Positions 31,256-31,957 of a DNA stretch of 64,000 nucleotides are shown piece after piece. A program made the translations under genes and the position numbers. Within the stretch, counting starts at the first letter, position 1. Every line of letters begins with the position of its first letter. The DNA is from Eledone cirrhosa (Eukaryota): assembly GCA_964016885.1 (NCBI GenBank), contig OZ024740.1, positions 96,410,001 through 96,474,000 on the forward strand. The letters run 5' to 3'. Below the pieces are notes generated by a model. The model was given only the letters and a program-made list of their open reading frames with translations, ran no database searches and was not told where the DNA came from.

Positions 31256-31957
31256 AAATTTTATTAAGTAAGTTAATTTTTATAATTTTCTTATTTTACG
31301 TATTTCATACTATTGTTCTGGATCCCCATGCATTGAACCACAAAGTTACTAAGACAAAACCTATATATTTGCTGGCATACGTATGCATCCGTATATATAT
31401 ATGTTAGTAGATATACTAATTCTTTATAATTATCTCCAAATTATTTTGTTGAGCCAAAATTGGCCAAAACTGCTACTATAGTTTAATAGTAATGGTTCGG
31501 CTGCTGTCTTCTTAACAAACCACTCCTCACAGATTAACCTCTATGTCACGTGATTGATTCTTTTGAATTTGCCACCGACGAAGTAGGCAGTGATTGTTTC
31601 AATGTCTTGGAACTTAGTCCACGCTTTGCTTTTTTCCATCCACTGAATTATTTTTGTATAAGTTCCCTGTCCACCCATTGCCTGGAAACTTAGCTGAGAA
31701 TAGACTTCCCTGATGACGAAATGCTTCTCCGTACGTTTCTTCGGAAACTATGTTTATTCCCTTTCAGAAACTAATTAGTTGGAGTGAAATTTTAGTAAGT
31801 AAGTTAATTTTTATAATTTTCTTATTTTACGTCTTTCATATTATTGTTCTGCATCCCCATGCATTGAACCACAAAGTTACTAAGACAAAACCTATATATT
31901 TGCTGGCATACGTATGCATCCGTATATATATGTTAGTAGATATACTAAATCTTTATA
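31256..31957 (+). mobile_element. HHR tandem-unit family A, subfamily 2 (1.3 units, period 531 bp, no ORF)
   Basis: 31256-31425 is repeated at 31787-31957; a diverged homolog of 35703-36310. Confidence 0.88.
31706..31784 (+). ncRNA. Type I hammerhead with extended stem II (family A2)
   Basis: TTCC-CTGATGA-CGAAA...GTTTC TTCG GAAAC...TTTCA-GAAA-CTAATTAG-TT^GGAG. Confidence 0.82.

What the first reader, a model, noticed from the sequence alone, without database searches (positions are those of the whole stretch)
31256..31957. Diverged sister subfamily (531-bp unit) shows compensatory changes in the ribozyme
Seen: the unit differs substantially from A1, yet CTGATGA, GAAA, CTAATTAG and TT^GGAG are identical. 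Stem II covaries (GCAA/TTGC becomes GAAA/TTTC), and the inner hairpin is replaced by GTTTC-TTCG-GAAAC, a C(UUCG)G tetraloop. The adjacent block CCTGGA.ACTTAGCTGAGAATAGAC is also conserved. Inference: selection acts on RNA structure in a non-coding replicating element.
Basis: partly seen in the sequence, partly recalled or inferred. Interest (0 to 1): 0.75.

Follow-up and report, generated by a model that had tools for sequence, protein, structure and literature searches.

The report
Hammerhead retrozyme family with conserved RNA fold
This is one of over ten thousand copies of a small non-coding jumping repeat whose predicted self-cutting RNA (hammerhead) keeps its base pairs through compensating mutations across many subfamilies and whose insertion ends show it is likely copied by a Penelope-type enzyme: a known kind of element, with a possible extra RNA knot not yet tested.

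Summary
Observation confirmed, with corrections; interpretation supported. 31256-31957 is 1.3 units of a ~530-bp non-coding repeat with a type I hammerhead (predicted cut 31780/31781); 10,781 genome matches, control 0. Across 16 subfamily consensuses the 20 core and stem III columns never change, flanks change 0.93 times per column, and all 10 stem II changes are five compensated double substitutions. This copy carries a private stem II lesion (T31722). Structure is also conserved outside the ribozyme: two sense-strand hairpins lie between two fixed 3' ends (+61, +177) that run into (TA)n, and 24 of 33 head-to-head insertions have one end of each: a Penelope-like 'tail', here ~116 nt. Verdict: a metazoan non-LTR retrozyme (non-autonomous Penelope-like element). 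Variant features: an extra A before G12, a branched stem II, and a likely 5-bp GAGAA/UUCUC pseudoknot backed by one compensatory event. Cleavage, expression, circles and the driving element are untested or unidentified. The scan had already noted the two-ended Penelope signature in other repeat families of this genome; a sequence look-up for this family returned nothing.

The parts
31256..31957 (+). Whole insertion: one 5'-truncated arm of 1.3 units, starting 7 nt after the predicted cleavage site and ending at the long 3' end (+177)
31256..31786 (+). Full 531-bp unit, no ORF of note
31787..31957 (+). Partial second unit (pseudo-LTR-like direct repeat, 96% to 31256-31428; shares two non-majority bases with unit 1 at 31380/31911 and 31390/31921)
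31696..31700 (+). GAGAA, 5' strand of the proposed pseudoknot
   Evidence: inferred pairing
31704..31709 (+). Stem I 5' strand (ACTTCC, one bulged T in this subfamily)
31710..31717 (+). Core CUGAUGA (C3-A9) plus extra C
31718..31723 (+). Stem II 5' strand; T31722 is a private lesion (majority G)
31725..31729 (+). TTCTC in the internal loop of stem II, 3' strand of the proposed pseudoknot
31730..31752 (+). Inner hairpin capped by C(UUCG)G (GTTTC-TTCG-GAAAC at 31735-31748)
31760..31766 (+). Stem II 3' strand CCTTTC and the invariant extra A before G12
31767..31780 (+). GAAA, palindromic stem III (ACTAATTAGT), U16.1 and U17; predicted cut after 31780 (GUU^G)
31781..31785 (+). Stem I 3' strand GGAGT (position +1 of the next unit)
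31841..31841 (+). Position of the short fixed 3' end (+61) used by other insertions of the family
31846..31869 (+). Conserved hairpin H1 in the tail
31893..31944 (+). Conserved long G-U-rich hairpin H2 in the tail
31958..32070 (.). (TA)n target microsatellite at the long 3' end

Best explanation
This is a copy of a non-coding, ~530-nt hammerhead-bearing repeat (a metazoan non-LTR retrozyme) that is likely reverse-transcribed and inserted into (TA)n by a Penelope-like enzyme in trans, and whose RNA fold is kept by selection on the lineages that get copied. Steps. SHOWN in DNA: type I hammerhead layout, invariant core, compensated stems, two conserved tail hairpins, two fixed 3' ends into (TA)n, random 5' ends, head-to-head arms with one long and one short end, read-through of the cleavage site, one haplotype per insertion in most cases. 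INFERRED: tandem copies are transcribed as multimers; two ribozymes cut as a dimer through the palindromic stem III (about 0.7), helped by a GAGAA/UUCUC pseudoknot that docks the stem I flank on stem II (about 0.6); the released monomer is ligated to a circle in which the lone ribozyme is self-inhibited (about 0.55); a Penelope-like RT/endonuclease dimer cuts (TA)n, starts at +61 on one DNA end and +177 on the other, and copies round the template until it stops or the two cDNAs join (about 0.8 for Penelope-like mobilisation). Inserted copies then decay neutrally, as this one has.
For: Copy number and control. Covariation; stem II pair 2 shows all four Watson-Crick types (AU16, GC7, UA6, CG3, 0 of 32 unpaired). 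Tree-based: 0 changes in 20 core/stem III columns, 10 changes in stem II all as 5 double substitutions, against 0 of 876 flank column pairs with 2 or more changes being fully complementary. Core left unspecified in the search: no subfamily-level core change among 100 + 100 listed. Whole monomer folded as a circle: z -3.9 to -7.9 sense, -1.1 to -3.6 antisense, 9 of 9 stronger in sense (12 shuffles each). Tail hairpins: consensus energy -21.0 sense versus -7.8 antisense. Ends: 91 of 98 arms end at the short (48) or long (43) site, 82 of 91 into TA/TC repeats, 24 of 33 head-to-head pairs long+short and 0 short+short; this matches the tail and inverted copies of PLEs (PMC8557442) and the two RT start sites of a purified PLE (PMC11167929). 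77 of 91 arms cross a cleavage site, 25 cross two; units of one insertion agree at 90 of 107 informative sites versus 26% between insertions. Dimer: palindrome duplex -9.0 to -10.8 kcal/mol versus +1.5 for the monomer hairpin; active monomer fold 2.5-3.9 kcal/mol above the MFE in 17 of 17 consensuses. Intact PLE ORFs exist in the genome.
Against: No cleavage, expression or circle has been observed. No autonomous partner was found: no similarity beyond low-complexity or 16-17-nt AT-rich matches between the unit and the flanks of 50 GIY-YIG loci or 30 Hydra-type loci, and no PLE ORF regularly joined upstream of an arm in 302 overlapping loci. No pile-up of 5' ends at the cut site (3 observed, 2.7 expected within 5 nt). 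17 of 107 informative sites disagree within an insertion, 7 of them in L017, which a single circle does not explain. The tail is about 116 nt, not the 30-40 bp described. The extra A before G12 and U17 depart from the usual core, 8 of 9 Xenopus retrozyme dimers did not cleave in vitro (bioRxiv 10.64898/2026.07.22.740005), and ribozyme mutants did not block PLE insertion in vitro (PMC11167929). Some lineages carry an uncompensated extra base in stem II (GAAAAGG, GAAACGG) or stem I. The pseudoknot rests on one compensatory event; none was seen in a second clade (0 of 100). No Rfam family matches.
Confidence: 0.85

Rival explanations
1. Same element and same enzyme, but the template is an uncut linear multimer transcribed from longer tandem source arrays; no circle is needed and the ribozyme acts at another step or rarely.
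For: Read-through of cleavage sites and no 5' pile-up fit this equally. Long arrays exist (one spans about 6.4 kb at G000:C1:152.49 Mb). Mixed haplotypes in L017. PLE insertion in vitro used unprocessed RNA (PMC11167929).
Against: Units within one arm agree at 49 of 53 informative sites, as expected from one template position; an invariant catalytic core over 16 subfamilies needs cleavage or ligation to matter for copying. Linear copying alone cannot lengthen arrays (inference).
Confidence: 0.3
2. The copies are detached pseudo-LTR pieces of an autonomous PLE, and the covariation records selection on that autonomous parent.
For: 5'-truncated PLE ends with hammerheads are common (PMC4209133); PLE-type ends are present.
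Against: The unit repeats head to tail with no ORF (61 monomers, longest ATG frame median 51 aa, maximum 102 aa); no ORF regularly joined upstream; sampled autonomous Neptune-type and Hydra-type elements have unrelated flanks and their own hammerheads.
Confidence: 0.07
3. A viroid-like RNA that replicates RNA-to-RNA and is only occasionally captured in DNA.
For: Small, structured, ribozyme-bearing, many lineages; RNA-RNA steps were raised as a possibility in PMC4209133 and PMC7229834.
Against: Ribozyme on one strand only in the loci examined; structure is sense-biased; GC about 35%; more than 10,000 integrated copies with retrotransposon ends explain the spread without it.
Confidence: 0.04
4. 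An ordinary satellite or dead repeat; the apparent covariation is shared ancestry and the motif is chance.
For: Cells count sequences, not events; loci were mostly fetched with core-containing patterns; some flank blocks are invariant for 9-11 columns.
Against: Five separate double substitutions on a tree built from non-ribozyme columns; null 0 of 876; searches with the core unspecified give the same core; dispersed insertions with fixed ends.
Confidence: 0.02

Closest known systems
Metazoan non-LTR retrozymes (Cervera and de la Pena 2020, PMC7229834; Li, Clavereau and Pollet 2026, bioRxiv 10.64898/2026.07.22.740005)
   Same: Non-coding tandem units with one type I hammerhead each, GC below 45%, thousands of copies, co-occurring with PLEs; proposed PLE mobilisation.
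   Different: Unit 520-570 nt (170-400 nt in the 2020 paper, 51-972 in the 2026 preprint); mostly 1-2.5 units in two-armed insertions; circles and cleavage shown there, untested here; no homologous autonomous pLTR found here, whereas 21 of 57 Xenopus families matched PLEs.
PLE hammerheads with palindromic helix III (Cervera and de la Pena 2014, PMC4209133; consensus CUGANGAH G..C GAAAN palindrome NUH in its supplement)
   Same: Extra nucleotide after A9, G10.1-C11.1, short helix I, palindromic helix III suited to dimers, many covarying families in one genome.
   Different: An invariant extra A between C11.1 and G12; stem II continues through an internal loop into a second hairpin; proposed pseudoknot. 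Lunse et al. 2017 on PLE hammerhead variants could not be read and may cover such forms.
EN+ Penelope-like elements, Neptune and Hydra clades (Craig et al. 2021, PMC8557442; Frangieh et al. 2024, PMC11167929)
   Same: Partial tandems, inverted 5'-truncated copy, tail at one end only, (TA)n targets, two start sites, hammerhead near the repeat end.
   Different: No RT or GIY-YIG ORF; tail about 116 nt rather than 30-40 bp and holding two conserved hairpins.
Pseudoknotted hammerheads (Perreault et al. 2011, PMC3088659; PK hammerhead of Zhan et al. 2024, PMC11300833)
   Same: A base-paired contact between the stem I side and the stem II side in place of loop-loop contacts; about 40% of hammerheads in the 2011 survey.
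   Different: Here helix II is intact (6 bp) and the contact is from the 5' flank of stem I to an internal loop; in the PK hammerhead structure the pseudoknot replaces helix II.

Membership tests
Type I hammerhead ribozyme (PLE type) | CUGANGA, GAAA and NUH in type I order around three stems | tested here: met
   20 of 20 core and stem III columns invariant
Type I hammerhead ribozyme (PLE type) | G10.1-C11.1 with an extra nucleotide after A9; palindromic helix III | tested here: met
   GC in 31 of 32; ACUAAUUAGU palindrome; consensus
Type I hammerhead ribozyme (PLE type) | C11.1 directly followed by G12 | tested here: not met
   An invariant A lies between them; a variant of the core, effect on activity unknown
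Type I hammerhead ribozyme (PLE type) | Self-cleavage at NUH | not testable with these tools
   No assay; no RNA reads available
Metazoan non-LTR retrozyme | Tandem non-coding units, each with a type I hammerhead, low GC | tested here: met
   61 full monomers between successive cores, 478-571 nt, GC 0.35, longest ATG frame at most 102 aa
Metazoan non-LTR retrozyme | At least two consecutive complete ribozymes (Li 2026 'active' criterion) | tested here: inconclusive
   Met by many family loci; not met by this copy, which has one ribozyme with a stem II lesion
Metazoan non-LTR retrozyme | Expression as linear and circular monomer RNA | not testable with these tools
   No run on record as RNA was offered
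Non-autonomous Penelope-like element | Variable 5' truncation, partial tandems, inverted 5' copy, tail at one end, microsatellite target | tested here: met
Non-autonomous Penelope-like element | Sequence shared with the pLTR of an autonomous partner | tested here: inconclusive
   None found in 80 sampled PLE-protein loci out of many thousands of candidates
Autonomous EN+ PLE | ORF with RT and GIY-YIG | tested here: not met
PK hammerhead (Zhan 2024) | Pseudoknot replaces helix II | tested here: not met
   Helix II is a 6-bp covarying stem (paper passages)
Pseudoknot-stabilised hammerhead (Perreault 2011) | [quoted passage not shown] | tested here: inconclusive
   5 bp, 95.6% of cells paired; 77 GAGAA/TTCTC, 19 GAAAA/TTTTC, 4 mixed of 100 listed, but one event on the tree
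Type-SGC (non-circularly permuted) hammerhead | Blocks in permuted order | tested here: not met
   Ordinary type I order (PMC10085705 passages)

The most novel reading that the evidence does not exclude
A pseudoknotted, self-inhibited hammerhead variant with an extra A in the core runs a circular RNA whose ribozyme and two tail hairpins are both under selection; the family's natural series of compensated alleles maps the RNA elements that a Penelope-type reverse transcriptase recognises at its two start sites, 116 nt apart, and shows that ribozyme function is required for Penelope-driven copying in vivo, which in vitro work left open.
Probability: 0.35. Interest if true: 0.62.

Novelty: new variant of a known kind. 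Interest (0 to 1): 0.42.

Why it matters
The role of the hammerhead in Penelope-like elements is open: it was dispensable for insertion in vitro (PMC11167929) and has been suggested to be a mere passenger (PMC8557442). A family whose core never changes and whose stems are repaired again and again over 16 subfamilies up to 27% apart is genomic evidence that the ribozyme fold matters for being copied. Its natural allele pairs give ready-made disrupt-and-rescue constructs for the proposed pseudoknot, and the fixed start sites with conserved hairpins give a minimal template for testing which PLE enzyme moves retrozymes. The class itself, covarying PLE hammerheads and the PLE link are already in print, so the gain is detail and testability, not a new system.

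Tried and rejected
Rfam at gathering threshold on the window (0 hits) and at E up to 1 on 3 loci (only hairpin-driven miRNA-type hits below threshold): no hammerhead model fits the long stem II. Single-sequence folding of the 117-nt ribozyme region: z between +0.46 and -1.14 in 6 of 6, no support on its own. First pair count had the inner hairpin mis-registered (helix 4); corrected. Rival pairing of GAATAGAC with the 3' strand of the internal loop, seen in the MFE of this copy: 75.4% paired, score 0.029 versus 0.031 shuffled, rejected as a conserved helix. Pile-up of 5' ends at the cut site: not found; +1 to +20 has 12 versus 5.8 expected (p 0.012, one of 9 windows, mostly inversion junctions in AT-rich microhomology), not taken as evidence. 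An apparent 5' cluster at the UUCG loop vanished with subfamily-matched references (4 versus 3.9). Second compensatory event in the pseudoknot: none in the A-type clade (90 canonical, 5 + 5 single changes, 0 double of 100 listed of 170). Autonomous partner: not identified; a shared 12-nt motif downstream of a Hydra-type ORF (window 10819-10830 region) was noted but not shown to be more than chance. Expression: no RNA holder listed; the three coded runs are contigs from one study and cannot show expression. Lunse et al. 2017 not held. The stem III motif was not found in the readable supplements of PMC8557442 and PMC4209133 (one file of the latter not searched); the supplement of PMC7229834 could not be read and bioRxiv supplements are closed.

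Full report
Observation. The stretch 31256-31957 is one 531-bp unit plus 171 bp of the next (96% identical), followed by (TA)n. Read as RNA on the + strand they form a type I hammerhead: stem I 31704-09 with 31781-85, CUGAUGA 31710-16, an extra C, a 6-bp stem II, an internal loop, a UUCG hairpin, an extra A, GAAA, a palindromic stem III and a GUU^G site at 31780/31781. Rfam has no match, and single-sequence folding of the domain is not better than shuffles, so the case rests on comparison.

The family. The window lies in a 3.0-Gb animal genome; earlier scan notes call it a cephalopod, which I did not test. The spaced core pattern has 10,781 exact matches and the reversed control 0; a marker of this subfamily group has 1,579. 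Among 61 full monomers between successive cores, lengths are 478-571 nt, GC is 0.35 and the longest ATG frame is at most 102 aa. Subfamily consensuses differ by up to 27%. The majority of this copy's subfamily has GAAAGG/CCTTTC in stem II, so T31722 is a private lesion and A1 differs from A2 at two pairs, not one.

Covariation. On 32 real representatives RNAalifold found stems I, II, III and the inner hairpin unprompted. For the named structure 94.4% of 765 cells pair, 10 of 24 pairs change on both sides, and the score is 0.308 against 0.151 for shuffles (0 of 500) and at most 0.108 when slid. Because those counts ignore relatedness, I built 17 consensuses from clusters of at least 3 copies (147 of 212 pieces; 65 left out), dropped one whose consensus carried a deletion from biased sampling, and made a tree from non-ribozyme columns only. 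Parsimony gives 0 changes in 12 core and 8 stem III columns, 163 in 175 flank columns (85 invariant), and 10 in the 12 stem II columns. Reading the tree, these 10 are five double substitutions: pair 2 AU to GC, AU to UA, UA to CG; pair 5 GC to UA twice. Among flank columns 8 of 3,777 variable pairs are fully complementary, and 0 of 876 with two or more changes. Stem I shows compensated insertions in two lineages and an uncompensated bulge in this one. Most loci were fetched with core-containing patterns, so I repeated the search with the core unspecified: 83 of the first 100 listed (of 4,727) and 89 of the first 100 (of 8,740) have intact halves, with scattered lesions and no subfamily-wide change. 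Against: some lineages have an extra base in stem II. Conclusion: selection acts on the source lineages; inserted copies decay.

A possible pseudoknot. In one clade the first 100 listed of 964 copies are 77 GAGAA/TTCTC, 19 GAAAA/TTTTC and 4 mixed. The 19 belong to one branch, and a second clade shows no double change, so this is one event on a hypothesis formed after seeing the data. A rival pairing of the same block has no support. Base-paired stem I-stem II contacts are known in about 40% of hammerheads (PMC3088659, passages); the solved PK hammerhead differs in replacing helix II (PMC11300833, passages). I put the knot at about 0.6.

Structure outside the ribozyme. Nine monomers folded as circles have z -3.9 to -7.9 in sense and -1.1 to -3.6 in antisense (12 shuffles each). 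Thirteen consensuses of the region after the cut (203 of 259 pieces) share hairpin H1, with one GC to AU change, and a long G-U-rich hairpin H2 with several paired changes; consensus energy is -21.0 sense and -7.8 antisense. No tree-based test was run on H1 and H2.

How it moves. In 70 loci chosen by a marker outside the ribozyme, 91 of 98 arms end at +61 (48) or +177 (43) from the cut, 82 of these into TA or TC repeats; 5' ends are scattered; of 33 head-to-head pairs 24 are long+short, 3 long+long, 0 short+short and 6 have one irregular end (24 of 27 is p about 2.5e-5 against an even chance, my hand calculation). This is the PLE signature of partial tandems, an inverted 5'-truncated copy and a tail at one end (PMC8557442, passages and section 11), and a purified PLE starts reverse transcription at two internal sites that bound the tail (PMC11167929, parts 1-2 of 4). 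Here the tail is about 116 nt and contains H1 and H2. 77 of 91 arms cross a cut site and 5' ends do not pile up there, so the template is not a cut linear monomer. In 53 insertions of this subfamily group, units of one insertion agree at 90 of 107 informative sites (49 of 53 within an arm, 41 of 54 across arms) against 26% between insertions; this favours one template position, as in a circle, but L017 is a mosaic and an uncut multimer is not excluded. Energy calculations fit dimer control: the palindrome pairs between two copies at -9.0 to -10.8 kcal/mol, the monomer hairpin costs +1.5, and the active monomer fold lies 2.5-3.9 kcal/mol above the MFE, which in 12 of 17 consensuses pairs CUGAU with the stem III loop.

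The driver. The genome holds thousands of GIY-YIG candidates, open Neptune-like frames of 844-1,096 aa (clade label from the RT motif and linker, partly recalled, no tree made) and Hydra-like frames of up to 816 aa with the CxCX5C linker described in PMC8557442 section 11. None of 80 sampled loci shares real sequence with the unit, apart from copies of the unit inserted nearby, and no ORF is regularly joined upstream of an arm. The partner is unidentified.

Comparison and novelty. The element meets the DNA-level definition of a metazoan non-LTR retrozyme (PMC7229834, passages and sections 14 and 17; bioRxiv 10.64898/2026.07.22.740005, parts 1-3 of 5) and its ribozyme fits the PLE consensus (PMC4209133, parts 1-2 of 4 and one supplement passage), which already mentions covarying families. 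Departures are the extra A before G12, the branched stem II with a likely knot, and the long structured tail. Eight literature searches showed no description of this family, but Lunse et al. 2017 was not held, several supplements could not be read, and PMC6765202, PMC10085705 and PMC1636495 were seen as passages only. Earlier scan notes report the same two-ended insertion pattern for other families in this genome (seen after my) and none for this sequence. Verdict: real, well supported, a variant of a known kind; interest 0.42.

Noticed in passing
window 34900-36310: A1 insertion with the same two-armed build: minus arm to the long end (then (TC)n(TA)n), plus arm to the short end, joined head to head at 35702; none of its three ribozyme copies is fully intact.
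   Followed up: partly
window 8769-8959 (-): Solo A1-type piece running from just after the cut site to the long end, embedded in (TA)n on both sides.
   Followed up: partly
window 32874-34092; 12927-15081; 27118-27510: 3' ends of a Neptune-like PLE as a 1.17-kb palindrome with a tail of about 50 bp; its small hammerhead at 33889-33921 (CTGAAGA T TGC-GAAA-GCA T GAAA GTAC TT^GTTC) also has unpaired bases on both sides of stem II, a palindromic stem III and U17. A broken RT/GIY-YIG frame of the family lies at 13546-15081 (-).
   Followed up: partly
window 17287-19284 and 21165-21650: Hydra-like PLE (RT fragment 18208-19284 +; relatives with 746-816-aa frames) with its own hammerhead-like motif with an extended stem II upstream of the ORF (17391 -, 21546 +).
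   Followed up: partly
window 10340-10830: Second Hydra-like GIY-YIG fragment; just downstream is ATTTTACGTC, also found beside the short 3' end of the repeat family. Could be chance in AT-rich DNA.
   Followed up: no
window 8532-8573 (+), 21841-21882 (+), 29540-29570 (-): Further hammerhead-like cores of unrelated families next to (TA)n.
   Followed up: no
L273:7010-7919, L282:8218-9901, L290:1542, L274:9745: Other hammerhead-bearing tandem repeats (about 459 and 500 bp units; some with long stem II) in loci fetched for PLE proteins.
   Followed up: no
G000:C1:152492747-152499184 (L135-L140): Array of about 12 diverged units with uncompensated GAAAA/TTCTC in several units; likely local amplification free of the constraint seen in dispersed copies.
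   Followed up: partly
L017: Mosaic insertion: units differ at 7 lineage-informative sites, suggesting two templates or a mixed multimer.
   Followed up: partly
window 1-7745: Two or more broken copies of a non-LTR (R2/R4-like by recalled motifs) RT element, 89% identical between 1-2181 and 4924-7106.
   Followed up: no
window 47922-49647 and 11032-11918: Palindromic repeat family with a 141-bp internal tandem, linked to the Hydra-like 3' region at 10800-11900.
   Followed up: no
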